A stretch of 64,000 bases of DNA. It comes from Escherichia coli. GTDB lineage: Bacteria > Pseudomonadota > Gammaproteobacteria > Enterobacterales > Enterobacteriaceae. Below the pieces are notes generated by a model that was not told where the DNA came from, made no database searches, and saw only the letters and a program-made list of their open reading frames with translations. Positions 10,846-61,734 of this stretch are shown here, in pieces. The translations under genes and the position numbers were made by a program. Where the stretch lies: NCBI RefSeq assembly GCF_044324875.1, contig NZ_CP172185.1. One strand, 5' to 3'. The number at the start of each line of letters is the position of its first letter. The first letter of the stretch is position 1.

Positions 10846-11382
10846 ATGCAAAGAGAGCAAATCGTGCAGATAACCGAAACCGTACTTTCAGAGCCGGTGG
10901 AAATCCGGCGTTTTATTCAGCAGGCGGTGGATCACTGGCCGCGTCTGCTGGCCGTTCAGTTCACACTTCATTCAACAGGAGGAAATTGTGACGGGAGGCA
11001 GATTCATGCGTTTTACTGGGCATTTTACCGACAGCTGAATCAGCGAAGCCATACCGGATATCCGTTACTGCCGGTGGTGCTACGCTGGCTGCGGGAAACG
11101 ACAGAAAGCACAGACAGCACCGGGATACGCTGTCTGTTGCTGATCAGCCAGGATCTCATTTGCCCACCAGGATCCGGAATGACGTCTGATGACGCTGATT
11201 CGCACCTTGTGGCGTTACTGCAGCAGGCCGGCACCACACTCACGGCAGAAGGGCACTGTACGGTGGTATGCTGTTACAGGGTGGTGCGTGCAGCCACACC
11301 TGAAGGCGCTGAGTCACTCACGGCATTCAGAAACGCGTGCCTTTCGTTGGCCAGGCCCGTGATGGCCGGCATCATCCGCTAA
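10846..11382 (+). CDS. hypothetical protein, possibly another YagK/YfjJ-like paralog
   Basis: ORF immediately upstream of the helicase; weak resemblance (LAVQFTLH, IRCLLLISQD); start chosen at internal ATG 10846. Confidence 0.3.
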   Translation: MQREQIVQITETVLSEPVEIRRFIQQAVDHWPRLLAVQFTLHSTGGNCDGRQIHAFYWAFYRQLNQRSHTGYPLLPVVLRWLRETTESTDSTGIRCLLLISQDLICPPGSGMTSDDADSHLVALLQQAGTTLTAEGHCTVVCCYRVVRAATPEGAESLTAFRNACLSLARPVMAGIIR

Positions 11383-11508: not shown

Positions 11509-14354
11509 ATGAAAATCTGTCTTTACCATACCCTGAATCCTGAAACGATCCCGGGCTATAAAAAGTTTGCGCAGGCCATTGAGGCAGATAATTTCGCGCA
11601 GGCGGATGTGCGTAAAATTGATACTAATCTCTACCGGGCACGCCTCAGTATCCGGGATCGGTTGTTGTTTTCACTTTACCGTTACCGTGGTGAGACGGTC
11701 TGCCTGGTACTGGAATATCTGCGTAACCATGCTTACCACACGTCACGTTTTCTGCGCAGGAATGTGGTGATCGACGAGGCGCGGCTGCAGCTGCAACCGG
11801 TGCCGGATCCGGCAGATGCAGACGCCGGTACACTGACGTATCTCAACCCCACTCACGGGCGTTTTCACTACCTGGATAAAATGCTCTCTTTTGATGATGA
11901 CCAGCAGGCGCTGTATGAACATCCGATGCCACTGGTGATTGTCGGCTCCGCCGGCAGCGGAAAGACGGCACTGTTACTGGAGAAAATGAAGCAGGCCGGG
12001 GGCGATATTCTGTATCTCAGCCTTTCGTCATTTCTGGTGGAAAAAGCCCGCACACTCTATCACGCATCTGGTGAAGAACATGACGGGCAGACCATTGATT
12101 TTCTGTCGCTGAGCGAGTTTCTGGAAACCCTGCGCATTCCGGAAGGGCGGGAGGTGACGTTCAGTGCGTTCAGCAACTGGCTGCCCCGCAACCGGACCAC
12201 CGCTGCACTGGGCTCTGGCCATACCCTGTATGAGGAATTTCGTGGTGTCATTGGTGCCGTTGCTTCTGACAACGGACCGCTGTCCCGGGAGGCGTATCTG
12301 TCGCTGGGAGTACGTCAGTCACTTTATGATATGGATGACCGTCCGGCGGTTTACGCCCTGTTTGAGCGTTATGTTGCATGGCTGAAACAGTCGCGTCAGT
12401 ATGACAGTAATCTTCTCAGCCACCAGTACCTGCCACTGGCCGGGCACCGTTATGATGTGGTTTTTGTGGATGAAGTGCAGGATATGACGCCTGTGCAGCT
12501 GCGGCTGGTTCTGAAAACCCTGCGTCATCCCGGTCAGTTTGTACTCTGCGGCGATGCCAATCAGATAGTTCATCCCAGCTTTTTTCCTGGAGTGCCCTCA
12601 AAAGCCTCTTTTTCCGGCAGCAACAGAACGAGGCTGCCGTGAATATTCTGCAGGCGAATTACCGTAACGGGCACCATGTCACCGCACTGGCTAACCGGCT
12701 GCTCAGACTTAAACTGGCCCGGTTCAGTGCCATTGACCGGGAAAGTCACCATTTTGTCAGAAGCTGCGGGCAGACGGAAGGCACCATCAGGCTGCTGGAA
12801 GACCGGGAAGCCACCCGCCATGAGCTGAACAGCAAAACCTCCCGCTCAAACCGTGTGGCGGTGATTGTGATGCAGCCGGAGCAGAAAGCACAGGCCCGGC
12901 GCTGGTTCAGTACACCGCTGGTTTTTTCGGTTCAGGAAGTGAAGGGGCTCGAGTACGAAACGGTGATCCTGTACAACATGGTCAGCAGTACCCGTAAGGC
13001 ATTTGATGATATCTGCGAAGGGATCAATCCGGCAGATCCTGAGGGTGAGGTGCGTTATGCCCACCCCCGGGACCGGCAGGATCGTTCAGCAGAAATCTAC
13101 AGGTTTTTCACCAACGCGCTGTATGTTGCGCTCACCCGTGCCACGCACAACGTGTACCTTGTTGAGCAGGAGGTGGCCCATCCGCTGTGGTCCCTGCTGG
13201 CCCTCACGCATCATGAAACGCAACTGGAGCTGCAGGAAGAGATTTCCAGCCGTGATGAGTGGCAGAAAACCGCTCACCTGCTGGAAAAACAGGGGAAGCA
13301 GGAGCAGGTGGACACCATCCGCAGTATGATCCTGCAGGAGTCAGAAGTACCGTGGCAGATCTTCAGCGCAGAGGATGCGCGGCAGTGGAAACAGCAGATC
13401 CTCAGCGGGACGGCGGACAAAGCCACGAAACTGCAGGCGCTGGAATACAGCCTGATTTATTCCCTGTTTCCGCTGTATAATGCGCTGTACCGGGAAGATT
13501 TTAAGCCCACAAGGCAGCCCCGGACCCGGAGCCAGCAGTTACTGGAGCAGAAGTATTTTCGTCCCTACTCAGTGAATAATCCGGTCGCCGTGCTGAGGGA
13601 TATTGAACGTTATGGTGTTGATCACCGCTCGCCGTTTAATCTTACGCCGCTGATGCTGGCAGCCCGGGCGGGGAACACGGCGCTGGTTCAGTTGCTGCTG
13701 GATCGTGGTGCCGATCCCACGCTGACGGCAAATGACGGGCTGGCGGCGTATCATCATGTTCTGTCAGCGGCGGTCAGCACGCCCCGTTATGCGCAGCAGA
13801 AGGGGGCACAACTCTATGCCTTGCCGGGACCGGAAAGCCTGTCACTGCAGGTGGAAGGGCGGCTTGTCAAACTGGACAACCGGCAGATGGCAATGTTTCT
13901 GGTGATCCTGATGCAGGCATTGTTTTACACGCATCTGGGGAATGCTCTGGTTTTTTCAGAAGCCTTCAGTGCGGCACGACTGGCAGAGTGTGTCGCCCAC
14001 TTTCCTGAAGCCCTGCTGCCGGAACGCCGCAGGCGGAGGAATTATATCAGCAGCCAGCTTTCTCAGCATGAAGTTAACAGCAAGAACCCTTATGGAAAAA
14101 AGCTGTTTCTGCGACTGAGGCATGGTCAGTATATTCTTAATCCGGGGCTGAAAATCAGGCAGAATGACGGGTGGTACCCGGTTTACGACTTGCAGTCACC
14201 GGAAGATCTCGGTCATGATTTACAGACGTATCTGCAGGACATGCCCCCGTACATTCTGGAGATTCTGGGGGGCAGGAAGGATGTTTACGAACAAAGTAAG
14301 GGGTCTGTCGGATACTGGGTGGCGATGATCCGCCGTCACAGTGGTGAGCCGTAA
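11509..14354 (+). pseudogene. UvrD/Rep-like SF1 helicase with C-terminal ankyrin repeats, split by a frameshift in a T6 tract (12580-12585)
   Basis: Walker A GSAGSGKT, motif II VFVDEVQD, motif III CGDANQ in frame 1; downstream NYRNG, ALTRATH motifs and ankyrin repeat (LTPLMLAARAGNTALVQLLLDRGADP) in frame 3; adding one T restores one ORF of about 947 aa. Confidence 0.7.
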
Positions 14355-44558: not shown

Positions 44559-45437
44559 ATGAAAATACTGCCCGTTGTCTCCACAAAAGGTGGCGAAGGT
44601 AAATCAACACAATCCGCAAACCTGGCTGGTTTTCTCGCCGATGCAGGTATCCGTACCCTGCTGATTGACGGAGATCATGCTCAGCCCACGGCAAGCAACA
44701 TCTTTCCGCTGACATATGAAGCGTCAGCCGGTCTTTTTGAGTTGCTGATGCGCACGGCTGACCTCAGTCATCCCGATAACATCATTTCCCGCACGGCTAT
44801 CGACGGACTCGATCTGATAGTCTCCAATGACCCTCATGAGCAGTTAAAAACTGCGATGCTTCACGCCCCGGATGGTCGTCTGCGCCTCCGGAATGTCCTG
44901 CAGCATCCGCTTTTTCTGAACAACTACGATGTCATTGTAGTTGATTCTCAGGGAGCACGTTCTGTCATGCTCGAAATGATTGTGCTGTCGGCCACTGATT
45001 CGGTTGTCGGGATGGTCAATCCGGTACTCCCTGATGTGCGCGAGTTTATTCGGGGCACTGTCAATGTTATGGAGAACCTGCTGCCTTACCGGGAGCTGGG
45101 GATACCCCTGCCGAAAGTACGCACGCTGGTTAACTGCATGGATTATACGGCACTGGCCAGGAAGACGCTGGATGAGCTGGCCGGAATTATTCAGACCGGT
45201 CGTTACAGCAGACAGTTACCTGAAGGTGCGGTTTCCCTTCTTTCCACACAGATTTACGACCTGAATATTTACAAGCAGGGGCATGCGGCTGGTCAACCCG
45301 TACATCGTCTCGAAAAAGAATCCACACGTCGCAGTGATTCCGCGCTTGTCACGATGCACAGCCTGGCCTGTGAACTCTTTCCTGAGTGGAAACAGGCGTT
45401 TGACGGGCTGCTGGCGAACGGGGGAATACGTCAGTGA
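44559..45437 (+). CDS. ParA/Soj-family partition ATPase (ICE left-end gene)
   Basis: deviant Walker A KGGEGKST at N-terminus. Confidence 0.8.
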   Translation: MKILPVVSTKGGEGKSTQSANLAGFLADAGIRTLLIDGDHAQPTASNIFPLTYEASAGLFELLMRTADLSHPDNIISRTAIDGLDLIVSNDPHEQLKTAMLHAPDGRLRLRNVLQHPLFLNNYDVIVVDSQGARSVMLEMIVLSATDSVVGMVNPVLPDVREFIRGTVNVMENLLPYRELGIPLPKVRTLVNCMDYTALARKTLDELAGIIQTGRYSRQLPEGAVSLLSTQIYDLNIYKQGHAAGQPVHRLEKESTRRSDSALVTMHSLACELFPEWKQAFDGLLANGGIRQ

Positions 45438-46511: not shown

Positions 46512-47900
46512 ATGTCTGAACGCTATATTCCACGCTCCGTTGATGCAGAGCAGGCCGTGCTGGGCGGCCTGATGCTCGATAATGAACGCTGGGATGAGGT
46601 GGTACTGATGCTCCGGGGGGAGGATTTTTCTCTGGCCGCACACCGGGTGATATTCCGCACCATGTCAGAGCTGGCAACCAGCGGTCAGCCGTTCGACCTC
46701 ATCACGCTGAGTGAGCATATTGAGAAAACAAACAATATTGAGGCACTGGGTGGTTTCGCTTATCTGGCTGAACTCAGCAAAAATACGCCTTCTGCAGCCA
46801 ATATTATCGCTTATGCCCGTATTGTTGCTGAAAAGAGCATGCTGCGTCAGTTGCAGGAGACGGGGAATGCGCTGATTACGGATGTGGCCGCACCGGATGC
46901 GACACCACGCACTGTTCTTGAATCCGCTGAACGTCGGCTCTTTTCACTTTCACAGACTGGCATGTTGCATGAGCGATGTGAAGTCAGTCTCACCTCGGCT
47001 ATGGAGCTGGCGCTGCGTCAACTGGAAGAGGGACTGAACGCCGGCGGGATGACGGGCACGCCCACGGGATTTGATGAACTGGATGAGATGACCTGTGGTC
47101 TGCAGCCCGGCGACCTCATTCTTCTGGCTGCACGCCCGTCTATGGGGAAAACAGCGCTGGGCCTTACCTTCTGTCTTAATGCCCTGTGTAACCGGACCGA
47201 TGAAACGGTATTTCTTTTCAGTATCGAAATGTCCCGGGAGCAGCTGATTCTGCGTGTCCTGTCAATGCTCTCCAGGGTGGAGCTGACACGTCTTCGCAGC
47301 AGCATGATGGATGATGAAGAGTGGGCGAGAGTCACGGCAACCATGGGACGCTTCATGAATGAAGCGTCATTCATCGGAGATGGAAACCGCCTGATAATTG
47401 ATGACACCTCCTTCCAGACGCCGTCATCGCTGCGTGCCAGCGCCCGTCGTTATGTCCGTCTGTATGGCAGACCTTCCCTGATAATGGTTGATTACCTCCA
47501 GCTGATTCGTTCTCCGGACCAGGAGAACCGAACGCAGGAAATTGCGGAAATATCCCGCGCCCTTAAGGCGTTAGGTAAAGAGCTGGGATGCCCGGTACTG
47601 GCACTGTCTCAGCTTAACCGTCAGGTGGAGCAGCGGGCGGATAAGCGCCCCAATAACGGTGACCTGCGTGATTCCGGGGCGCTGGAGCAGGATGCTGACC
47701 TCATTATGTTTATTTACCGTGATGAGGTTTATAACTCTGGCACGCTGGATAAGGGCGTTGCTGAAATCATTGTGAGCAAACAGCGGCAGGGGCCAACCGG
47801 AACGATACGGGTGAACTTCGACGGCCGCTACACCCTGTTTTCACCGTTTGAACGTGGATGGAATTTTGACCGTGCCGGAGGAAATGCGTATGTCAATTAA
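46512..47900 (+). CDS. DnaB-like replicative helicase
   Basis: N-terminal DAEQAVLGGLMLDNERW, Walker A GKTALGLTF, RecA-like C-terminal domain. Confidence 0.8.
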   Translation: MSERYIPRSVDAEQAVLGGLMLDNERWDEVVLMLRGEDFSLAAHRVIFRTMSELATSGQPFDLITLSEHIEKTNNIEALGGFAYLAELSKNTPSAANIIAYARIVAEKSMLRQLQETGNALITDVAAPDATPRTVLESAERRLFSLSQTGMLHERCEVSLTSAMELALRQLEEGLNAGGMTGTPTGFDELDEMTCGLQPGDLILLAARPSMGKTALGLTFCLNALCNRTDETVFLFSIEMSREQLILRVLSMLSRVELTRLRSSMMDDEEWARVTATMGRFMNEASFIGDGNRLIIDDTSFQTPSSLRASARRYVRLYGRPSLIMVDYLQLIRSPDQENRTQEIAEISRALKALGKELGCPVLALSQLNRQVEQRADKRPNNGDLRDSGALEQDADLIMFIYRDEVYNSGTLDKGVAEIIVSKQRQGPTGTIRVNFDGRYTLFSPFERGWNFDRAGGNAYVN

Positions 47901-49539
47901 ACGAAATCATTCCGTTGATCTGGGAGCTGCCATCATGCAACCGGGCCGTCAGACCAGCACGACGGGTAACGTGGTGGCGCTGGGGGAAACACCGATGATT
48001 CTGACGCTGGATCAACTGCGCCCCAACCCGGATAACCCGAGGACCACGCGTAATCCCCGGTACGACGATATTAAAAGTTCAATTTTCTCCCGTGGACTGG
48101 ATACGGTGCCCAAAGTCACCCGGATACCTGAGAGTGAGCCGGATATCTATATTTTCAGCGATGGTGGTAACACGCGATATCAGATCCTGAAAGAGCTGTG
48201 GGAGGAGACCGGCGATCAGCGTTTCTATCGTATTCATGTGCTTTTCAAGCCATGGCCGGGACGGCTTCAGTGCGTCATTGGTCACCTGGCTGAGAATGAA
48301 GTCAGGGGCGAACTGACGTTTATTGAAAAGGCCCGGGGTATCCATAACGCCCGGATGATTTATGAGGAGTCGATGCAGCGAACCGTGACGATCAGGGAAC
48401 TGGCGTCACTGCTGACGGATGAAGGACTTCCGGTAAGCCACTCATCTGTCAGCAGGATGGAGCATACTCTGAAATATCTGTATCCGTGGATCCCCGATCT
48501 TCTGGAATCAGGATTAGGAAGACCGCAGATCAATTCACTGTTGTCTCTCCGGCAGGATGCGGAACGCATCTGGGGACAGTTTGCGGTGGCAACAGAGAAC
48601 GGGGCGGATTTTGACCGCGTGTTTGGTGAATGCTGCAGCAAATTCAATTCACCGGAGCTCTGGTCACTGGAGATGTTCCGGGATGAGCTGATTGGTGATC
48701 TGCTGAAAGCGTTACCACATCCGGTGCTGGATTATGACCGCTGGTTGCTTGAACTGGATCCGCGGGAGCGTAACCGACGTCACCATTTTGGCGAACCTGA
48801 GCCGGTGCTCATTCCCGCAGACAGTGATGCGATGCCAGAGCCTGCGACTGACGGTGTGTCGGCAGTGACGGCGGAGAAGAACAGCGGAAGGGAGCAGTCT
48901 GTGATTTCCGCACCGGCTGACCATGACACAGTCATGAATACGGAGCAATCCCCGGCTGGAAAGGCGGAGAGTTCAGTTATCGAACAACGCGAAGAACGCC
49001 GTAGAAAGGAAGTCCAGCCGGATATGTATGGTGGTGAAGAAACATACAGCGGCGATTACGAAGAGGATGGCGATACCCGTGATGCTGCGGATCTGCCGGT
49101 AACGTCACCGGAAGAGGGGGCTCAGCAGAGCAGCGGTGAAATATTCAGTGAGCCGGTATTCAGTGTTGGTGAACTGGATGATATCGAATATCTGCAGAAT
49201 GAGGCATTTCACCTGGCATGGGAGCTGGCGTCACACACAGGCTGTGTCGATGAGCTGGCTATGGACAGGGAAAGCGAACTGTCTGCGGGATTCGGCGCGG
49301 CAGAGGCGAATTGTTCTCCGGTCATGGCATTTCTTGTCAGGCTGACCGGTGAGGAGGTTCTGCGGGTTAATCCGGTTTCTCTTGATGCACTGATGATTGG
49401 TGGCAGTACTGAAGAAGAGCCACCACTGCTGGATGATGAGCATGCCGGGAAGTTACTCCGTCTGCTTGGGGTGTTGCGTCGTCTGCGGGGGCTGCAGCGC
49501 CAGGTGGAAGAAGAGAACGTGGAGGGGCGTGATGAATAA
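47884..49539 (+). CDS. ParB-like nuclease-domain protein (ICE ParB family)
   Basis: ParB N-terminal-domain-like region (LRPNPDNPR) then long acidic C-terminal half. Confidence 0.6.
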   Translation: MRMSIKRNHSVDLGAAIMQPGRQTSTTGNVVALGETPMILTLDQLRPNPDNPRTTRNPRYDDIKSSIFSRGLDTVPKVTRIPESEPDIYIFSDGGNTRYQILKELWEETGDQRFYRIHVLFKPWPGRLQCVIGHLAENEVRGELTFIEKARGIHNARMIYEESMQRTVTIRELASLLTDEGLPVSHSSVSRMEHTLKYLYPWIPDLLESGLGRPQINSLLSLRQDAERIWGQFAVATENGADFDRVFGECCSKFNSPELWSLEMFRDELIGDLLKALPHPVLDYDRWLLELDPRERNRRHHFGEPEPVLIPADSDAMPEPATDGVSAVTAEKNSGREQSVISAPADHDTVMNTEQSPAGKAESSVIEQREERRRKEVQPDMYGGEETYSGDYEEDGDTRDAADLPVTSPEEGAQQSSGEIFSEPVFSVGELDDIEYLQNEAFHLAWELASHTGCVDELAMDRESELSAGFGAAEANCSPVMAFLVRLTGEEVLRVNPVSLDALMIGGSTEEEPPLLDDEHAGKLLRLLGVLRRLRGLQRQVEEENVEGRDE

Positions 49540-50263
49540 TGATGCAGCACGTCAGGAGCAACTGATTAAACGGATAAGAAAACTGCTGGCGCTGAGCCGG
49601 AATAACAGTAATCCACATGAGGCAGGTCAGGCTCTTTCCCGCGCACAGGCGCTGATGCGGAAGCATGGTATCACCGAACTGGATGCTGATATTTCGGTGA
49701 TAAAAACCTCATCATCAAAGGGAGCACCGTCAGAAGCGGAAAAAGTTCCGGTATGGATGGGGCGTCTTATGAATGTTGTTGCAGGGGCATTCGGATGCCA
49801 TACATACCTGGACTGGCGTATCACAACCGGAGGATACTGGCGGCGGATTGTCACATTTTATGGTTTTGGGGAGCGTCCGGTTGTGGCTGCGTATGCCTTT
49901 GATGTTCTCTGCCGGCAGATGCAAAAGGCGACAAAAGAGTATCTCTCAACCCAGAGCCGGAAATTAAAACACTCAACCCGTCGTGCAAGAGCTGCGATGT
50001 TTCGTGACGGCTGGGTTTATGGGGTGCGTGATGTGGTGGATGCATTCCGGCTCACGGAAGATGAGACGCGTGTAATGAATACGTGGCTGCAGAACCAGCA
50101 ATTTGAGGGAATGGTCGTCTTCCGGGAGGTAAAGGACTGCCATGGCGGTGACCATGCACGCTGGCAGGGATACAACGAGGGGAAAAAGGCAACGCTGAAT
50201 CACGGTGTTGGTTCCCGGGATCTGAGACCGGAAAGCCTGATATCGGGCGGAGGTGAGGTATGA
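49532..50263 (+). CDS. hypothetical ICE protein
   Basis: start overlaps parB-like stop; conserved ICE backbone position. Confidence 0.45.
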   Translation: MNNDAARQEQLIKRIRKLLALSRNNSNPHEAGQALSRAQALMRKHGITELDADISVIKTSSSKGAPSEAEKVPVWMGRLMNVVAGAFGCHTYLDWRITTGGYWRRIVTFYGFGERPVVAAYAFDVLCRQMQKATKEYLSTQSRKLKHSTRRARAAMFRDGWVYGVRDVVDAFRLTEDETRVMNTWLQNQQFEGMVVFREVKDCHGGDHARWQGYNEGKKATLNHGVGSRDLRPESLISGGGEV

Positions 50264-50838
50264 GTAACAACTTATCACAGGCCACCAACGGGCTGTTGAT
50301 GCAACTGGTGATGGATCTCAAGAGTGGCTATCTGCGGCGATGTGAAGCGCTGGGGCTTTCCCGGGAAGAAATGCAGATGCTGCAGGGGCTGAGCATTGAA
50401 GAAATTCACTATCTGTCAAATTCAGAAGTGTCGGTGCTGCGGCTGGATATTAACCACAACAATCTTGTGCGCATGTTGCAGCAGGCGCGGACTGAACAGA
50501 AACGTCTGCAGCGAATCGATCGCGCTCTGGCGCTGGGTGGGTCTATCGAACTCATGGCGTTTTATTTTGGTCTTTCCAGCGTGGATGTGGCTGCGCGGCG
50601 TCGTATCTCCGGTATTGATGTTCGTCCCGGAAGGGGGATCACCCTGAGTGACGATGAGAATTCTGAACTCTGGCGGTTGTGGCAGAAAGCCGGGATCAAT
50701 GATGTGGAGAGTGTGGATGGGCTGGATGTCATGATGCTTTGTGCTGAACAGATGAACATTCCACTGACGGCCATCTGGCATGCCGTCAGAGGGTGGCATA
50801 CAACCGGAAATCCGGATCAGGTAAGGAGTGCGTCATGA
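50260..50838 (+). CDS. pathogenicity-island replication protein, STY4526/YPO1902-like (assignment by gene order and recollection)
   Basis: 192-aa ORF translationally coupled to neighbours. Confidence 0.4.
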   Translation: MSNNLSQATNGLLMQLVMDLKSGYLRRCEALGLSREEMQMLQGLSIEEIHYLSNSEVSVLRLDINHNNLVRMLQQARTEQKRLQRIDRALALGGSIELMAFYFGLSSVDVAARRRISGIDVRPGRGITLSDDENSELWRLWQKAGINDVESVDGLDVMMLCAEQMNIPLTAIWHAVRGWHTTGNPDQVRSAS

Positions 50839-54203: not shown

Positions 54204-55469
54204 ATGGCGCTACCTGCAGAAAGCCTTATTGCGCATACGCTCAGAAAAATGAAGGCCAGCATGGCAGAGAAAGCCAGTCGTGAGGACGGGAGGATACGCA
54301 GTGGGCTGTTGTTTACCGGCAATGTTCACGATTCGTATCCCCGCAGGCTGTTGCTGGATACGCGCCTTTCTCCCCTTGATAAAACTGCGTGGATGATGAT
54401 TCGTCTGCATGCCCTGAATAATGAGGGCGCAGTATTTCCGACGTACGATGAACTGCAGTTACAACTGGCATCTCCCGGGCGCGGGAAGGCGTCCCGTGAA
54501 ACAGTGAGCCGGGTGCTGACAATGCTGCGGCTTACGGGCTGGCTGAGTCTGTGTAAGCGGGTCAGGGATGAAAAAGGGCGGGTCCGGGGGAATATTTACG
54601 CCCTGCATGATGAGCCACTGACCTGCTGTGATGCAGAAAAGTTTGACCCACGATACCTGGATATGGTTCTGGATACTGTGAGCAGGAGCCGGAACAAGAC
54701 AATCCGGCACACAGCCAGTGAAGTGCTCAGTGATATCAAAAATGAGCCCGGTATGCGGCATTACCACAGCCATATCACTCTGTTTGAATCGCGTATGGGG
54801 GCAGCACAGACACCTGGTCAGCTGGCGGCGCGTCAGCGGGTGAACCCGATGGTGAATGAAAACACAGGCAGAGAGAGTGGTTCGGATTCCGTACATACCC
54901 CTGCACCTGTCGTGCAGGTAAACGAACTCAGTGATCCATTAATCGAACTCAGTGAAAAACAGGAAATGAGCCCACTCAGTTCGGATTCCGTACTGCCTGA
55001 AAAATCAGCAACTTATTACTCGGTTCGGAAACCGAACAATTACGTACGTAATATCACACACAGTGTGATTAAAAATACGTACGTATTGCCTGAGTCGGTG
55101 AAATCGCAAATCAGCGCAGAAGACACGGACATGCTGACAAAACAACTGCAGGCGTTGCCGGAAGAACTGGCAGGTAGTGTGCTGAGCAGCCTGTTACAGA
55201 TGCTCAGCAAAAACACGCTCCAGAATCCGGTTGGCTGGATGCTGGCTGTGATGAAACTTGCGCGTGAGGGACGTTTTAATACGCCGGATATGTCCGTGCA
55301 TGAATCCCGGTCGCCAGCCCGTGCACCATATCAGCCTGTGTACAACCGTGATGAACGTGAACGTCGTCGCGGGAAAGTGGCGTCACCTGAAACGGTGAGC
55401 AACATTGTCGCAGAATTCCGGGCCAGCCTGAAACGTGCAAATGCTGCCCGTCTGGCGGCGCGTGTGTGA
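54204..55469 (+). CDS. ICE/pathogenicity-island replication initiator-like protein (STY4528-like)
   Basis: 421-aa ORF immediately followed by an iteron array. Confidence 0.5.
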   Translation: MALPAESLIAHTLRKMKASMAEKASREDGRIRSGLLFTGNVHDSYPRRLLLDTRLSPLDKTAWMMIRLHALNNEGAVFPTYDELQLQLASPGRGKASRETVSRVLTMLRLTGWLSLCKRVRDEKGRVRGNIYALHDEPLTCCDAEKFDPRYLDMVLDTVSRSRNKTIRHTASEVLSDIKNEPGMRHYHSHITLFESRMGAAQTPGQLAARQRVNPMVNENTGRESGSDSVHTPAPVVQVNELSDPLIELSEKQEMSPLSSDSVLPEKSATYYSVRKPNNYVRNITHSVIKNTYVLPESVKSQISAEDTDMLTKQLQALPEELAGSVLSSLLQMLSKNTLQNPVGWMLAVMKLAREGRFNTPDMSVHESRSPARAPYQPVYNRDERERRRGKVASPETVSNIVAEFRASLKRANAARLAARV

Positions 55470-55483
55470 TGGTTAAAAGTCAA

Positions 55484-55803
55484 TCTATGGCGCTACTGGC
55501 ACCATAGTACAAAAAATAAGCGATGGTGCCACTGGCACCATAGTACAAAAAATGAGCGATGGTGCCACTGGCACCACGGTATAAAAAATGAGCGATGGTG
55601 CCACTGGCACCACGGTATAAAAAATGAGCGATGGTGACGCTGGCACCATAGTACAAAAAATAAGCGATGGTGCCACTGGCACCACGGTACAAAAAATAAG
55701 CGATGGTGCCACTGGCACCATAGTACAAAAAATGAGCGATGGTGCCACTGGCACCATAGTACAAAAAATGAGCGATGGTGCCACTGGCACCATAGTATAA
55801 AAA
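55484..55803. repeat. iteron array: ~9 tandem 36-bp units each containing palindrome GGTGCC-ACT-GGCACC
   Basis: period 36 bp measured between successive GCGATGGTGCC starts (55520, 55556, 55592...). Confidence 0.85.
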
Positions 55804-55935: not shown

Positions 55936-56616
55936 ATGACTGATGAGAAAAAGACTGAACCTGGCGTGTTAAAAAGCTCCCTGACAATTAATATTCACAC
56001 TTATTACGCTATTCGGTTGTGGAACGGTCGCAAGCCTGAGACTGGTGCTGATAAGTCGGAACGTCGGCGCAGGATCATTGGCATGCCCGGGGTTATTTCC
56101 CGTGCGGGTATCGCAACAAAAGATTCTGAGAACAATAATCCGTGGGCGGATGAATTTTTGTTCAGCCTTGAGGAAAAGCTGAATCACTCAAAGCAAAAGA
56201 TTAATGACCTGGTTGAGCAGTTAAATGATGTTTTACGGGATGTGCCAGGGGATATTTGTATTTCTGAAATATCATCAACCAGTCCAGTAAATATTGGTGT
56301 GCACAGTCGTTCACCTCTTGGTTACAAATGTGTATGGCTGCTTGTCGGGTACGATGAACTGGTGCTTAAAGCCTTTCAGGCTTTCCACTATGGACTGATT
56401 GCCCGATCACGTCGTGATGAAATACTTAATGCCGGAGGGCATGCTGTACGTCAGATTTGTGCTCTTGCCCAGGGATATAAAACTGTACCTGCAACGAGGG
56501 GTGATATTTCTTCTGGCTCACAAAAAGGAAAAGATGCGATCAGCCGCTATGGCATGCCTGATCCTGACATCCTTACCGGGAAGAAACGGTCCTCCTTTTC
56601 TGCACCGCTGAAATAA
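55936..56616 (+). CDS. conserved ICE protein (PFL_4669-like, putative)
   Basis: ORF immediately upstream of topB as in SPI-7/PFGI-1-type ICEs. Confidence 0.4.
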   Translation: MTDEKKTEPGVLKSSLTINIHTYYAIRLWNGRKPETGADKSERRRRIIGMPGVISRAGIATKDSENNNPWADEFLFSLEEKLNHSKQKINDLVEQLNDVLRDVPGDICISEISSTSPVNIGVHSRSPLGYKCVWLLVGYDELVLKAFQAFHYGLIARSRRDEILNAGGHAVRQICALAQGYKTVPATRGDISSGSQKGKDAISRYGMPDPDILTGKKRSSFSAPLK

Positions 56617-58880: not shown

Positions 58881-58927
58881 GGTATTGACTTTCTTTGTGT
58901 GAGCTTTAAATATGGCAGGGCTAACTT

Positions 58928-59110
58928 GTCGCTCCGGCGACCACCAATGTTCCATAGTGGCCTGTGAGGAACGCCTTCGGGTGGCCCATGTCGCTTCAGC
59001 GACCACCAATGTTCCATGTGGCCTGTGAGGAACGCCTTCGGGTGGCCCACGTCGCTCCGGCGACCACCAATGCTTCATCTGACCTGTGAGGAGCGCCTTC
59101 GGGTGGTCAG
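58928..59110. repeat. three tandem ~61-bp repeats
   Basis: GTCGCTCCGGCGACCACCAATGTTCCAT-GTGGCCTGTGAGGAACGCCTTCGGGTGGCCCA x3 with a few substitutions. Confidence 0.8.
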
Positions 59111-59357
59111 TTTTACACCTCCTGAGCCTGAAAGGAGCTGTGCGTACTGAAGGGATATATTCCCGGAAGTACGGGCAAATCTGCACACCTTTGAGAGCAG
59201 ATGTCACTGCGGTTTTCCGTGATGATGAAGGCTTTTTTTACTGCACAGACAGCCGGAAATTCAGCTGATTCCGGCATCCCCGACGGGAACTATCACTCCC
59301 GTCAGGGCTGGTGATGTTCTCCGTCATATCTTTTTTTCACTCCATGGAGAAATCATC

Positions 59358-59822
59358 ATGTCTGCAACTAACTCTACTTCTGCAAAAACTGAATACTTCA
59401 ACCTGACCATGAAAGGTCTTGGGTATCTCAGCAATGTACGTCAGGTTAACCATCAGAACGGTTCGTTCCTCAGCTGTGTGATTAACGCACTGAGTGGACC
59501 AACGGACAATCCGTCCTATACGCGTTTTGATGTTACGGTTGCCGGTAAAGAGGCGACCACCCTGATCTCCCGCTGCCAGAAAGCAGTGGATGAGGACCGC
59601 AAGGTACTGCTTGGTTTTACGTTAAGCAACCTTGCCACCGACATTTTCACCCTGAACAAGGGGGAGCATGCCGGTGAGCAACGCGTCAGCCTGAAAGCCC
59701 GCCTGATCAAGGTGGACTGGATAAAAATAGGCCAGGAGCAGGTCTATAAGGCTGAAAAAGCGGAGTCCCAGCCACCGAGCCATGGCACCACAAAACGTGA
59801 ATACGCAGAAGACTCCTTCTGA
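59358..59822 (+). CDS. conserved ICE protein (STY4534-like, putative)
   Basis: 154-aa ORF downstream of the 61-bp repeats. Confidence 0.4.
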   Translation: MSATNSTSAKTEYFNLTMKGLGYLSNVRQVNHQNGSFLSCVINALSGPTDNPSYTRFDVTVAGKEATTLISRCQKAVDEDRKVLLGFTLSNLATDIFTLNKGEHAGEQRVSLKARLIKVDWIKIGQEQVYKAEKAESQPPSHGTTKREYAEDSF

Positions 59823-60741: not shown

Positions 60742-61734
60742 GTGAGTGAAAAAGTTAACAAAATCACTATGATTCATGACGGGGCGTTAAAGAAGACGCT
60801 TGAAGATCCCGCAGCAGTAAGGGACTTTCTTGAACAGGTCTTGACACACGATCAGATATCCCGCTGTAATCTTGATACAATAGAAGTTGAAAAGAATTCG
60901 TTCGTGACGGAAAGTTTGCGTCAGCATGCCTGTGATGTTTTGATCAGCATGAAGACAAACGACGGCAGGGACGGATACATTTATACCTTAATCGAGCACC
61001 AGAGTTCGCCGGATAAATTCATCCCGCTGCGTATGATGCGATATATCCTGGCTGTAATGGAGCAACATGTTGAAAAGCATAAGTGTGCACCTGTGGTGAT
61101 CCCCGTGCTGTTTTATCATGGTGCAGTGCGGCCATATCCGTATCCGCTGAACTGGGTGGATTGTCTGGATGACCCGGAGTACGGACGTGAGATTTATGGC
61201 GAGTCAAAGCCATTCAGTCTGGTGGATGTCAGTACGCTTGATGATGATGAAATTGAGCAGTATCGCCGGATGGCGGCGCTGATGTACACCATGAAGTCCG
61301 GAACTCAGGGTGATTTGATTGAGCTGATTGGTAAATCGATCACACTGACGGATAAGTATGGCAGCAGCGTTCACCTGAATACGGTGCTTACTTATCTGAT
61401 GGAACTTTACCAGATGGATGTTGCTGAACTTTTTGAAGCAATATCCACACACTATCCCAGCCACAAGGGGGTGATTATGACGATAGCGGAACAACTGGAA
61501 GAGAAAGGCCTTGAGAAAGGCCGTGCTGAAGGTCTTGCTGAAGGCCGTGCTGAAGGCCGTGCTGAAGGTCTTGCTGAAGGTCTTGCTGAAGGCCGTGCTG
61601 AAGAGCGTCAAAAAGCGCTTGCAGAAACCTATGCATCTGTCCGTCGCATGAGTGATATGGGGATGTCAACAGAAGTTATTAAGCAAGCTCTTCAGCTTTC
61701 TGATGAACAGATTCAGGAAGCGCTTAATAATTAA
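60742..61734 (+). CDS. Rpn-family recombination-promoting nuclease / putative transposase (second paralog)
   Basis: GTG start after GGAGG; parallel to 14423-15412 incl. C-terminal (AEG[RL])n repeats. Confidence 0.7.
   Translation: MSEKVNKITMIHDGALKKTLEDPAAVRDFLEQVLTHDQISRCNLDTIEVEKNSFVTESLRQHACDVLISMKTNDGRDGYIYTLIEHQSSPDKFIPLRMMRYILAVMEQHVEKHKCAPVVIPVLFYHGAVRPYPYPLNWVDCLDDPEYGREIYGESKPFSLVDVSTLDDDEIEQYRRMAALMYTMKSGTQGDLIELIGKSITLTDKYGSSVHLNTVLTYLMELYQMDVAELFEAISTHYPSHKGVIMTIAEQLEEKGLEKGRAEGLAEGRAEGRAEGLAEGLAEGRAEERQKALAETYASVRRMSDMGMSTEVIKQALQLSDEQIQEALNN

What the first reader, a model, noticed from the sequence alone, without database searches (positions are those of the whole stretch)
55484..55803. 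36-bp iteron array (about 9 copies, each with a GGTGCC-ACT-GGCACC palindrome) immediately downstream of the replication-protein gene
Exactly phased 36-bp direct repeats with an internal palindrome begin 15 bp after the stop of the STY4528-like replication protein gene. This is the architecture of an iteron-type origin or a partition centromere; it is not a CRISPR array because there are no spacers. It probably marks the ICE replication origin or a ParB-like binding site.
Basis: seen in the sequence. Interest (0 to 1): 0.5.

Follow-up and report, generated by a model that had tools for sequence, protein, structure and literature searches.

The report
ParB (BisD-type) loading-site array in ICE
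The 36-bp repeat array is real and is most likely a cluster of binding and loading sites for the mobile element's own ParB-like (BisD-type) DNA clamp, not iterons for the neighbouring "replication protein". The repeat sequence and the ParB DNA-reading residues change together across related elements.

Summary
Window 55487-55803 holds 8.8 exactly phased 36-bp units. Seven carry the perfect 19-bp palindrome ATGGTGCCA-C-TGGCACCAT, followed by an A6 tract, and the array starts 15-18 bp after the STY4528-family gene.

Related ICEs carry the same kind of site at the same place, in 1 to about 26 copies, but with at least 15 palindrome variants that stay symmetric. The variants do not track the adjacent STY4528 protein, whose N-terminal 200 residues are virtually identical across three palindrome types. 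They track the ICE's 549-aa ParB-family protein (47890-49539):
- residues 183-190 and 155-163 follow the outer arm bases;
- residues 209-219 follow the inner bases.

Three palindromes predicted in advance from ParB sequence alone were all found. This ParB is a full-length homologue of ICEclc BisD, a CTP-dependent sliding clamp and co-activator. In 46 of 46 ICEclc-type loci, copies of the experimentally validated bisS palindrome lie in the same STY4528/PFL_4669 interval.

The array is therefore an expanded bisS/parS-type site cluster, comparable to F sopC. No origin hallmarks were found. Binding itself was not tested. I rate it a new variant of a known kind, of moderate interest.

The parts
55487..55803 (.). 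36-bp x 8.8 tandem array. Each unit is a 19-bp palindrome (ATGGTGCCA-C-TGGCACCAT) plus a 17-bp spacer with a central A6 tract. Perfect palindrome cores are at 55525, 55561, 55597, 55669, 55705, 55741 and 55777; degenerate cores are at 55489 and 55633. Proposed bisS/parS-type loading-site cluster.
   Evidence: homologous arrays; positional homology to ICEclc bisS
47890..49539 (+). 549-aa ParB-family protein, a BisD-type full-length homologue. It has an N-terminal ParB CTPase fold with GGNTR (92-96) and ENEVR (135-139), an HTH, a disordered linker and a C-terminal helical domain. Proposed cognate binder of the array.
   Evidence: NCBIfam TIGR03764, E 2e-113; AF2 model, pLDDT 85; Foldseek top hits Noc, KorB and ParB-CDP; hhalign to an ICEclc-type BisD-like ORF, E 2e-63, 37% identity, over residues 27-541
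48337..48549 (+). Codons for ParB residues about 150-220: the end of helix 144-162, HTH helices 168-177 and 184-197, and the N-terminus of helix 211-232. This is the specificity cassette that covaries with the palindrome.
   Evidence: secondary structure
50260..50838 (+). DUF2857 protein of the BisC family, the promoter-bound partner of BisD in ICEclc.
   Evidence: Pfam DUF2857, E 1e-65, with a weak FlhD match; PMC7423338 states that BisC carries DUF2857
44559..45437 (+). ParA-family ATPase at the ICE end, a possible partition or positioning partner of the ParB-array complex. The start coordinate is inferred from the 879-nt RefSeq homologues.
   Evidence: ORF; RefSeq annotation of homologous loci
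54204..55469 (+). STY4528-family gene immediately upstream of the array. It is a neighbour, not the specificity partner. It contains a different palindrome, GTTCGG-N3-CCG(A/T)AC, at 54880, 54979 and 55023.
   Evidence: NCBIfam NF040582; lack of covariation; internal palindromes
55936..56616 (+). PFL_4669-family (Pfam AcaB) gene immediately downstream of the array. It is the first transcription unit a clamp sliding downstream would meet.
   Evidence: NCBIfam TIGR03761; Pfam AcaB on homologues

Best explanation
The array is a cluster of seven perfect and two degenerate parS-like sites, equivalent to the 'bisS' sites of ICEclc. The sites serve the ICE's own BisD-type ParB protein, encoded 6 kb upstream.

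Proposed mechanism:
1. A ParB dimer reads each 19-bp palindrome symmetrically. The start of the HTH recognition helix (residues about 183-190, helped by 155-163) reads the outer arm bases. The N-terminus of the next long helix (residues about 209-216, the G210/R211/N215 motif) reads the two inner bases.
2. By analogy with ICEclc BisD and canonical ParB, site binding triggers CTP-dependent clamp closure.
3. The clamps then slide into flanking DNA, mainly downstream with transcription, through PFL_4669/AcaB, topB, STY4534, ssb and the transfer genes.
4. There they co-activate promoters held by the DUF2857 (BisC-like) protein. With ParA they may also position the excised ICE.

Many tandem sites would raise the loading rate or local ParB occupancy, as with the 12 repeats of F sopC.

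Shown here: the repeat anatomy, dyad symmetry kept through compensatory changes, covariation with ParB and not with STY4528, successful prediction of palindromes, the ParB CTPase fold and motifs, full-length homology to BisD, and positional homology with validated bisS.

Inferred: physical binding, CTP clamping, sliding, promoter activation, and the benefit of copy-number expansion.
For: 1. Natural experiment in seven near-identical E. coli ICEs. Four palindromes form a 2x2 set: GGTGCC, GGTGGC, GTTGCC and GTTGGC, each with a matching change in the other arm. ParB differs almost only in residues 150-220, and modularly. The HTH cassette ...SHSSVSRMEH goes with GGTG and ...DASSISRMEN with GTTG. 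GLGRPQ(I/V)NS goes with inner GCC/GGC and GMGSPQVRA with inner GGC/GCC.
2. 74 Enterobacterales loci. Most loci that reach the interval have a 6+3+6 palindrome of the same family just downstream of the STY4528 homologue.
3. Inner-base rule. Inner CG goes with S210-R211 in 10 of 11 cases. Inner GC goes with G210, a small residue at 211 and R215 in 11 of 11. Inner CC goes with G-R/K in 7 of 11.
4. Partial correlation controlling for overall divergence. All top 7-aa windows lie in ParB: 209-219 for the inner bases (r 0.42), and 183-190 (0.43) and 155-163 (0.38) for the outer bases. The maxima for STY4528 are 0.21 and 0.30.
5. Predictions written down in advance for three other E. coli lineages were all correct.
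6. Fold and motifs of a ParB CTPase, full-length homology to a BisD-like protein, and a DUF2857/BisC partner.
7. A scan with the exact ICEclc bisS. In 46 of 46 loci the bisS-like palindromes, usually 2-3 copies about 131 bp apart, lie between the STY4528 and PFL_4669 homologues. The BisD there has GLGRHQ and bisS has CC at the predicted positions.
8. Literature. BisD binds bisS, hydrolyses CTP, and spreads about 50 kb (PMC12409273). In Caulobacter ParB the recognition-helix residue 173 reads the outer position 1 and residue 201, on helix alpha-6, reads the inner position 6 (PMC7383237). That is the same topology as found here.
Against: - There are no binding data for this element, so everything about CTP, sliding and activation is by analogy.
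- One clear mismatch exists. L084 has a GGC-class ParB cassette but a TGTGCC array.
- About ten loci show no recognisable palindrome of this family.
- The 36-bp phasing is about 3.4 helical turns, so neighbouring sites face different sides of the helix. The conserved central A-tract of the spacer is unexplained and could bind another factor.
- Residue-level mapping onto a solved ParB-parS complex was not possible, because PDB sequence matches cover only the CTPase domain.
- The covariation rules were partly derived from the same data they describe. Only the three predictions and the ICEclc pair are independent.
Confidence: 0.85

Rival explanations
1. Pure partition centromere. The array is a sopC-like centromere used only with ParA to segregate or position the excised ICE, with no role in transcription activation.
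For: A ParA gene lies at the ICE end. The tandem palindrome-bearing repeats closely resemble F sopC (established knowledge). The ICEclc authors themselves discuss a partition-like or positioning role.
Against: The protein keeps the whole BisD architecture, including the C-terminal domain, and the BisC-type DUF2857 partner. In ICEclc these serve promoter activation. Disrupting parB in ICEHin1056 lowers transfer up to 100,000-fold, more than a segregation defect would predict. The two roles are not mutually exclusive.
Confidence: 0.2
2. Iteron-type vegetative origin. The repeats are iterons bound by the adjacent STY4528-family 'replication protein' to start ICE replication.
For: The array starts 15-18 bp after the STY4528 stop codon. 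The module also encodes DnaB, TopB and SSB. NCBIfam names the family a replication protein. STY4528 gives weak winged-helix/DnaD_N-like Pfam hints.
Against: STY4528 is 97-98% identical, with a virtually identical N-terminal 200 residues, in ICEs with three different palindromes. It shows no covarying window comparable to ParB. In the Enterobacter and Pantoea ICEs the array sits inside parB, and the STY4528/PFL_4669 spacer has none. The sites are perfect dyads, not directional iterons. The nearest DnaA-box-like match has one mismatch and lies 1.7 kb away, and there is no marked AT-rich unwinding element. One residual possibility remains: STY4528 or a host factor might bind the conserved A-tract spacer.
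Confidence: 0.06
3. Structured-RNA or terminator array. Each unit forms an 8-bp hairpin in a transcript, for example stacked terminators for antisense transcription.
For: The consensus scan lists 10 terminator-like sites on the minus strand against 0.9 expected. Compensatory changes keep the stem.
Against: The T-run starts 6-7 nt after the stem, so the hits are marginal. In most variants the palindrome extends to a single central base, which suits a protein dyad but cannot form an RNA loop. RNA pairing would not explain covariation with ParB residues. No Rfam family matches inside the array.
Confidence: 0.03
4. Protein-coding repeat gene, as RefSeq annotates a 'hypothetical protein' over the array in relatives.
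For: The 36-bp period equals 12 codons, which leaves long ORFs open: 110 aa in two minus-strand frames of the window. PGAP calls CDSs over the arrays.
Against: The annotated strand differs between genomes: minus in L001, L002 and L005, plus in L003 and L006. Several frames are open at once. Variation is dyad-symmetric rather than codon-structured. Copy number changes freely from 1 to 26.
Confidence: 0.02

Closest known systems
bisS sites of ICEclc, bound by the ParB-like CTP clamp and co-activator BisD (Antar et al., NAR 2025, PMC12409273)
   Same: - Same ICE superfamily.
- Homologous full-length protein, 37% identity by hhalign.
- Odd-length palindrome with one central base.
- Same syntenic interval, between the STY4528/orf96323 homologue and the PFL_4669 homologue.
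- A DUF2857/BisC partner is present.
   Different: - ICEclc was described with two isolated 23-bp sites 2 kb apart, and I saw 1-3 copies about 131 bp apart in ICEclc-type contigs. Here there are 9 sites, and up to about 26 in relatives, in a tight 36-bp array with a conserved A-tract spacer and no second downstream site.
- The palindrome sequence is unrelated apart from the inner CC, and it is hypervariable between close relatives.
- Binding and function have not been tested here.
sopC centromere of the F plasmid (12 tandem 43-bp repeats, each with a 7-bp inverted repeat bound by the ParB-family protein SopB); recalled from established knowledge
   Same: Exactly phased tandem repeats, each carrying one dyad site for a ParB-family dimer. 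Copy number exceeds what a single functional site requires.
   Different: - The period is 36 bp, not 43 bp.
- The array lies 6 kb from the parB gene rather than directly after it.
- The cognate protein carries an extra activation domain.
- The element is integrative, not a plasmid.
KorB-OB sites of RK2 (a ParB-CTPase that slides from its sites to regulate promoters together with KorA)
   Same: KorB is among the top structural matches of the N-terminal model. It is likewise a ParB clamp used for transcription control with a promoter-bound partner.
   Different: KorB represses over short distances from dispersed single sites. No tandem array is involved.
   Same: Phased direct repeats next to a gene named as a replication protein.
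   Different: Iterons are directional sites for Rep monomers, usually 17-22 bp, flanked by DnaA boxes and an AT-rich DUE. Here the sites are dyads, they covary with ParB and not with the neighbouring protein, and the origin hallmarks are missing.

Membership tests
parS/bisS-type loading site of a ParB-CTPase (BisD subfamily) | Two-fold symmetric (palindromic) DNA site | tested here: met
   The 19-bp perfect palindrome occurs seven times. Symmetry is kept by compensatory changes in at least 15 variants.
parS/bisS-type loading site of a ParB-CTPase (BisD subfamily) | A cognate ParB-family protein with GxxR and ENxxR CTP-pocket motifs and an HTH, encoded by the same element | tested here: met
   G93-N-T-R96 and E135-N-E-V-R139 are invariant. 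NCBIfam TIGR03764 matches. The AF2 model plus Foldseek hits Noc, KorB and ParB-CDP.
parS/bisS-type loading site of a ParB-CTPase (BisD subfamily) | Site sequence is specified by the HTH region of that protein (co-variation or predictability) | tested here: met
   2x2 modular covariation; partial correlation peaks at ParB 155-163, 183-190 and 209-219; rule table; 3 of 3 advance predictions correct; one exception, L084.
parS/bisS-type loading site of a ParB-CTPase (BisD subfamily) | Same genomic position as the experimentally validated bisS of ICEclc | tested here: met
   In 46 of 46 ICEclc-type contigs the bisS-like palindromes lie between the STY4528 and PFL_4669 homologues.
parS/bisS-type loading site of a ParB-CTPase (BisD subfamily) | BisD architecture (C-terminal activation/dimerisation domain) and a BisC (DUF2857) partner | tested here: met
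   hhalign aligns residues 27-541 to 31-539 of a BisD-like ORF, including the C-terminal helices. tblastn alone aligned only the N-terminal 320 residues. DUF2857 matches at E 1e-65.
parS/bisS-type loading site of a ParB-CTPase (BisD subfamily) | Direct, specific binding; site-stimulated CTP hydrolysis; clamp spreading | not testable with these tools
   This needs EMSA or BLI, a CTPase assay and ChIP-seq.
Iteron-type replication origin | Repeats are bound by, and co-evolve with, the adjacent Rep protein | tested here: not met
   STY4528 is 97-98% identical across three palindrome types. Its best covariation window is weaker than ParB's. In L041, L042 and L046 the array lies inside parB.
Iteron-type replication origin | Flanking DnaA boxes and an AT-rich unwinding element | tested here: not met
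   There is no DnaA box within 1.7 kb, and the window-wide count is not above chance. The lowest GC nearby is 0.385, in the PFL_4669 promoter region.
Iteron-type replication origin | Directional (non-palindromic) repeat units of about 17-22 bp | tested here: not met
   The information-rich, variable part of each unit is a perfect dyad.
Plasmid-type partition centromere (sopC-like) | Tandem ParB-family sites plus a ParA ATPase in the same element | tested here: met
   The array and a ParA gene at 44559-45437 are both present. Whether ParA acts on this complex was not testable.

The most novel reading that the evidence does not exclude
Closely related ICEs of this family keep regulatory and partition circuits that do not cross-react, by switching ParB/site specificity in two independent modules. 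The recognition helix changes with the outer bases, and the 210/211/215 motif changes with the inner bases. They also amplify the cognate site into arrays of up to about 26 copies. This would make the locus a natural, readable 'specificity code' for ParB-CTPase clamps. It would also make it an incompatibility or cross-talk determinant that decides which ICEs can coexist or cross-activate in one cell.
Probability: 0.45. Interest if true: 0.65.

Novelty: new variant of a known kind. Interest (0 to 1): 0.5.

Why it matters
- **Testable cis-site and partner.** The array gives a concrete cis-acting site and protein partner for the SPI-7/PAPI-1/ICEclc superfamily in Enterobacterales. These ICEs carry virulence and resistance cargo, yet their activation circuitry is known only from ICEclc.
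- **A set of matched pairs.** At least 15 natural ParB/site pairs, with a simple two-module correspondence, offer a ready-made system for studying how ParB-CTPase clamps change DNA specificity. They also allow a test of whether co-resident ICEs are insulated from each other.
- **Annotation.** RefSeq currently calls these arrays 'hypothetical protein' genes, and the neighbouring gene's name invites a wrong origin assignment. The array can also interrupt assembly: an N-gap lies inside the L087 array.

Tried and rejected
- **First genome-contig scan.** The scan with the seven near-identical E. coli ParBs found nothing, because the tool picked poorly conserved peptides. Repeating it with a diverse alignment worked.
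- **Raw mutual information.** Mutual information between protein columns and palindrome class was dominated by phylogeny and high-entropy columns in every protein, TopB included. I replaced it with a partial correlation that controls for overall divergence.
- **Pfam on ParB and STY4528.** Nothing significant was found.
- **PDB sequence and profile searches.** Only marginal matches to the CTPase domain appeared. The covarying residues could therefore be placed on ParB-parS structures only by helix topology, not residue by residue.
- **Rfam.** No family matches inside the array.
- **Terminator-like hits.** The minus-strand hits are marginal and do not explain the ParB covariation.
- **Extra palindrome copies.** No further copies of the type-1 palindrome were found elsewhere in the window, such as a second 'bisS-2'-like site.
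- **Literature.** Searches on SPI-7, tandem repeats, 36 bp and STY4528 found no prior description of this array. The held library is incomplete, so this is not proof of absence.

Full report
**Observation**

The array exists as described. Tandem Repeats Finder reports one array at 55487-55803 with period 36, 8.8 copies, 92% matches and no indels. Read in register, nine units are visible. Seven units contain the perfect core GGTGCC-ACT-GGCACC. With its flanks this is a 19-bp palindrome with a single central base, ATGGTGCCA-C-TGGCACCAT. Two units are degenerate (55489 and 55633).

Each palindrome is followed by a 17-bp spacer with a central A6 tract. The upstream ORF (54204-55469) ends 15-18 nt before the first unit. 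The 15-mer, allowing up to 3 mismatches, gives 21 strand-matches in the window against 1.7 expected. Nine array positions account for 18 of them, and the other three are weak.

**Context**

NCBIfam assigns the flanking genes to the SPI-7/PFGI-1/ICEclc class of integrative conjugative elements:
- ParB-family TIGR03764 at 47890-49539
- STY4528 family at 54204-55469
- PFL_4669 family at 55936-56616
- STY4534 family at 59358-59822

The order in the window is int, parA, a small ORF, dnaB, parB, DUF2786, DUF2857, small genes, STY4528, the array, PFL_4669, topB, STY4534, ssb.

**Relatives in E. coli**

Forty-eight of 5,426 complete E. coli genomes match the region. I examined six of them. In every one the same interval holds a 36-bp array, but the copy number is 11, 14, 16, 16, 25 and 26, against 8.8 here. 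One relative whose ParB is 100% identical to the window's has 15.8 copies, so copy number changes quickly. RefSeq annotates the arrays as 'hypothetical protein' CDSs, on different strands in different genomes. This looks like an artefact of a 12-codon period.

**Four palindromes**

The key finding is that these arrays carry four different palindromes:
- GGTGCC-ACT-GGCACC (window, L001, L002)
- GGTGGC-ACT-GCCACC (L004, L005)
- GTTGCC-AGT-GGCAAC (L003)
- GTTGGC-AGT-GCCAAC (L006)

Every change in one arm is matched in the other arm. That is the signature of a dyad-symmetric binding site for a protein dimer.

**Which protein**

The adjacent STY4528 protein is 97-98% identical between the ICEs carrying three of these palindromes. 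Its N-terminal 200 residues, where the weak winged-helix hints lie, are virtually identical. DnaB, ParA and STY4534 have the same protein accession in ICEs with different palindromes. PFL_4669 and TopB are identical in the GTTGCC and GTTGGC ICEs.

The ParB-family protein behaves differently. Its substitutions cluster in residues 150-220 and sort in a 2x2 pattern:
- The cassette ...EESMQRTVTIRELASLLTDEGLPVSHSSVSRMEH goes with outer GGTG.
- The cassette ...EEQLSKSVSMRELSSLLTEQGLPVDASSISRMEN goes with outer GTTG.
- Independently, SGLGRPQ(I/V)NS goes with inner GCC/GGC.
- SGMGSPQVRA goes with inner GGC/GCC.

**Wider sample**

A scan of one genome per species, using a diverse ParB alignment, returned 74 Enterobacterales loci. 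In 49 loci, a 6+3+6 palindrome of the same family follows the STY4528 homologue. The copy number runs from 1 to 9. About ten others show none. Spacing is usually 36 bp, and sometimes 57, 103-119 or 158 bp. At least 15 arm variants occur.

The spacer keeps an A5-6 tract (a T-tract in L043) at a fixed offset even when the palindrome changes. Where cargo is inserted between STY4528 and PFL_4669, copies of the palindrome flank the insertion. In three Enterobacter and Pantoea ICEs the 36-bp array (TGTTGCC-ACT-GGCAACA, 3.5 copies) lies inside the linker-coding part of parB, and the STY4528/PFL_4669 spacer has none. A Salmonella ICE has a single copy.

**Statistics**

Raw mutual information was dominated by phylogeny and was not usable. 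I replaced it with a partial correlation between pairwise window identity and 'same palindrome class', controlling for overall divergence. Among about 880 seven-residue windows of ParB, STY4528 and DUF2857, the top windows are all in ParB:
- 209-219 for the inner dinucleotide (r up to 0.42)
- 183-190 (0.43) and 155-163 (0.38) for the outer four bases

The STY4528 maxima are 0.21 and 0.30. A simple rule fits most dereplicated lineages:
- Inner CG goes with S210-R211 (10 of 11).
- Inner GC goes with G210, a small residue at 211, and R215 (11 of 11).
- Inner CC goes with G210-R/K211 (7 of 11). Three TGTGCC lineages use N/S-V instead.
- There is one outright exception, L084.

**Prediction test**

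Before looking, I wrote down predictions for three other E. coli ICE lineages whose ParBs are only 64-68% identical to the window's. All three were correct:

| Lineage (locus) | Predicted | Found |
|---|---|---|
| P0007 (L087) | GGTGGC | ATGGTGGC-AGT-GCCACCAA, at least 12 copies, with an assembly gap inside the array |
| P0015 (L089/L090) | GTTGCC | GTGTTGCC-AGT-GGCAACAG, 3.5 copies |
| P0057 (L091/L092) | inner GCC, outer probably GCTG | GTGCTGCC-CGG-GGCAGCAT, 5.1 copies |

**What the protein is**

An AlphaFold2 model of residues 1-300 is confident (pLDDT 85). It places helices at 144-162, 168-177, 184-197 and 211-232. Foldseek against the PDB returns Noc, KorB, pNOB8 ParB and the ParB-CDP/CTP structures. 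The GxxR (G93-R96) and ENxxR (E135-R139) CTP-pocket motifs are invariant.

The covarying segments are therefore the end of the helix before the HTH, the start of the recognition helix, and the N-terminus of the next long helix. In Caulobacter ParB, residue 173 in the recognition helix reads the outermost position of the parS half-site, and residue 201 on helix alpha-6 reads inner position 6 (PMC7383237). The topology here is the same. This is an inference from helix order, because PDB sequence matches cover only the CTPase domain.

**Link to ICEclc**

ICEclc BisD is a 550-aa ParB-like protein (G92NTR95, E136NELR140). Its experimentally shown properties are as follows (PMC12409273; BisC carries DUF2857 per PMC7423338):
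- It forms foci on two 'bisS' palindromes, GAGCTATCCCCnGGGGATAGCTC.
- It binds and hydrolyses CTP, and bisS DNA stimulates the hydrolysis.
- It spreads about 50 kb.
- It activates transfer-competence promoters together with BisC.

The window protein is 549 aa with the motifs at the same positions, and a DUF2857 protein lies two genes downstream.

I scanned metagenome contigs with the exact bisS sequence. The ICEclc-type loci have the order ParA, BisD-like ParB (43-45% identity to the window's N-terminal 320 residues), DUF2857, STY4528 homologue, bisS cluster, PFL_4669 homologue, bisS, TopB. In 46 of 46 loci, bisS-like palindromes lie between the STY4528 and PFL_4669 homologues. There are usually two or three copies about 131 bp apart.

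A profile comparison aligns the window family with one such BisD-like ORF over its full length, C-terminal domain included (E 2e-63, 37% identity). These BisD-like proteins carry GLGRHQ, and bisS has CC at the two positions the rule predicts. The window array is therefore the positional and functional homologue of a validated ParB-clamp loading site. Here it is expanded into a tight array.

**Rivals**

- **Iteron origin.** This reading fails three tests: no covariation with STY4528, dyad rather than directional units, and no DnaA boxes or marked AT-rich element. The in-parB arrays also argue against it.
- **Centromere only.** This cannot be separated from the activator-loading reading with sequence alone, and both may be true. 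The retained BisD/BisC architecture and the 100,000-fold transfer defect of a parB mutant in ICEHin1056 favour a regulatory role.
- **RNA hairpin or terminator, and coding.** These readings are weak (strand-inconsistent annotation).

**Open points**

- The L084 mismatch.
- About ten loci without a recognisable palindrome.
- The conserved A-tract spacer.
- The 36-bp spacing, which is not a whole number of helical turns.
- The reason for copy-number expansion in the E. coli lineages.

**Verdict**

The array is a new variant of a known kind, a tandemly amplified, hypervariable bisS/parS-type cluster that co-evolves with a BisD-type ParB. Interest is moderate. The mechanism class is already known. 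The natural two-module specificity switching and its possible role in insulating co-resident ICEs are worth an experiment.

Noticed in passing
window 54880-54894, 54979-54993, 55023-55037 (inside the STY4528 gene); also L013-L086, and L004/L005 5265-5414: A second, conserved palindrome, GTTCGG-N3-CCG(A/T)AC, occurs 3-6 times inside the STY4528-family gene in many ICEs. Its core, TTCGG-N3-CCGAA, is that of the ICEclc 'candidate bisS-3' (CTTCGGAtTCCGAAG) in orf96323, which BisD did not bind. It may be the site of another factor, possibly STY4528 itself.
   Followed up: partly
window 58927-59233: The 61-bp x 2.9 repeat between topB and STY4534 matches two copies of the Rfam STAXI motif (RF01728; 61.6 and 66.3 bits, gathering score 40.5). 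This is a known motif associated with ssb, topoisomerase and integrase genes of mobile elements.
   Followed up: partly
L041, L042, L046 at 11026-11152: In the Enterobacter ludwigii and Pantoea ICEs, a 36-bp x 3.5 array of TGTTGCC-ACT-GGCAACA lies inside the linker-coding region of parB itself. The sites are therefore also translated as a 12-residue peptide repeat.
   Followed up: partly
L001 6081-6665, L002 5424-6326, L003 6042-7007, L005 5848-6459, L006 6070-6648: RefSeq/PGAP annotates the repeat arrays as 'hypothetical protein' CDSs, on different strands in different genomes. These are probably spurious ORFs created by the 12-codon period.
   Followed up: partly
L018, L019, L022, L025, L049, L059, L076 (interval between the STY4528 and PFL_4669 homologues): Where 0.8-3.3 kb of cargo is inserted in this interval, copies of the palindrome lie on both sides of the insertion. 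It looks as if cargo entered within, or split, the site cluster.
   Followed up: no
L014 with L053 (Erwinia psidii); L018 with L082 (Xenorhabdus sp. BG5); L025 with L026 (X. hominickii): Two genomes carry two ICEs of this family with different palindrome/ParB types. One genome carries two identical copies. This fits, but does not prove, selection for circuits that do not cross-react.
   Followed up: no
L084 (Xenorhabdus yunnanensis) 13871-14101: This is an exception to the covariation. ParB has the GLGTPQIR cassette, which elsewhere goes with GGC/GCC, but the array is TGTGCC-CGT-GGCACA and is nearly identical to that of L085. It may reflect recent recombination or a mismatched, defective element.
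   Followed up: partly
window 33302-33424: The 23/47-bp repeats (ATGCCAAACCGTGATCGATTCG) abut the end of an IS21-type istA/istB pair (istA 31664-33310, minus strand). They look like the multiple terminal repeats typical of IS21-family ends, an ordinary feature.
   Followed up: partly
window 61505-61626: The 12-bp repeats (AAGGCCGTGCTG) lie inside the Rpn-family (Transposase_31) gene and encode an AEGLAEGRAEGR-type peptide repeat.
   Followed up: no
L116 7017-7302 and 45 other ICEclc-type contigs (L094-L165): In ICEclc-type elements, the validated bisS upstream of the PFL_4669 homologue is usually one of 2-3 bisS-like palindromes in about 131-bp direct repeats. The parts of the ICEclc paper I read describe only single sites.
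   Followed up: partly
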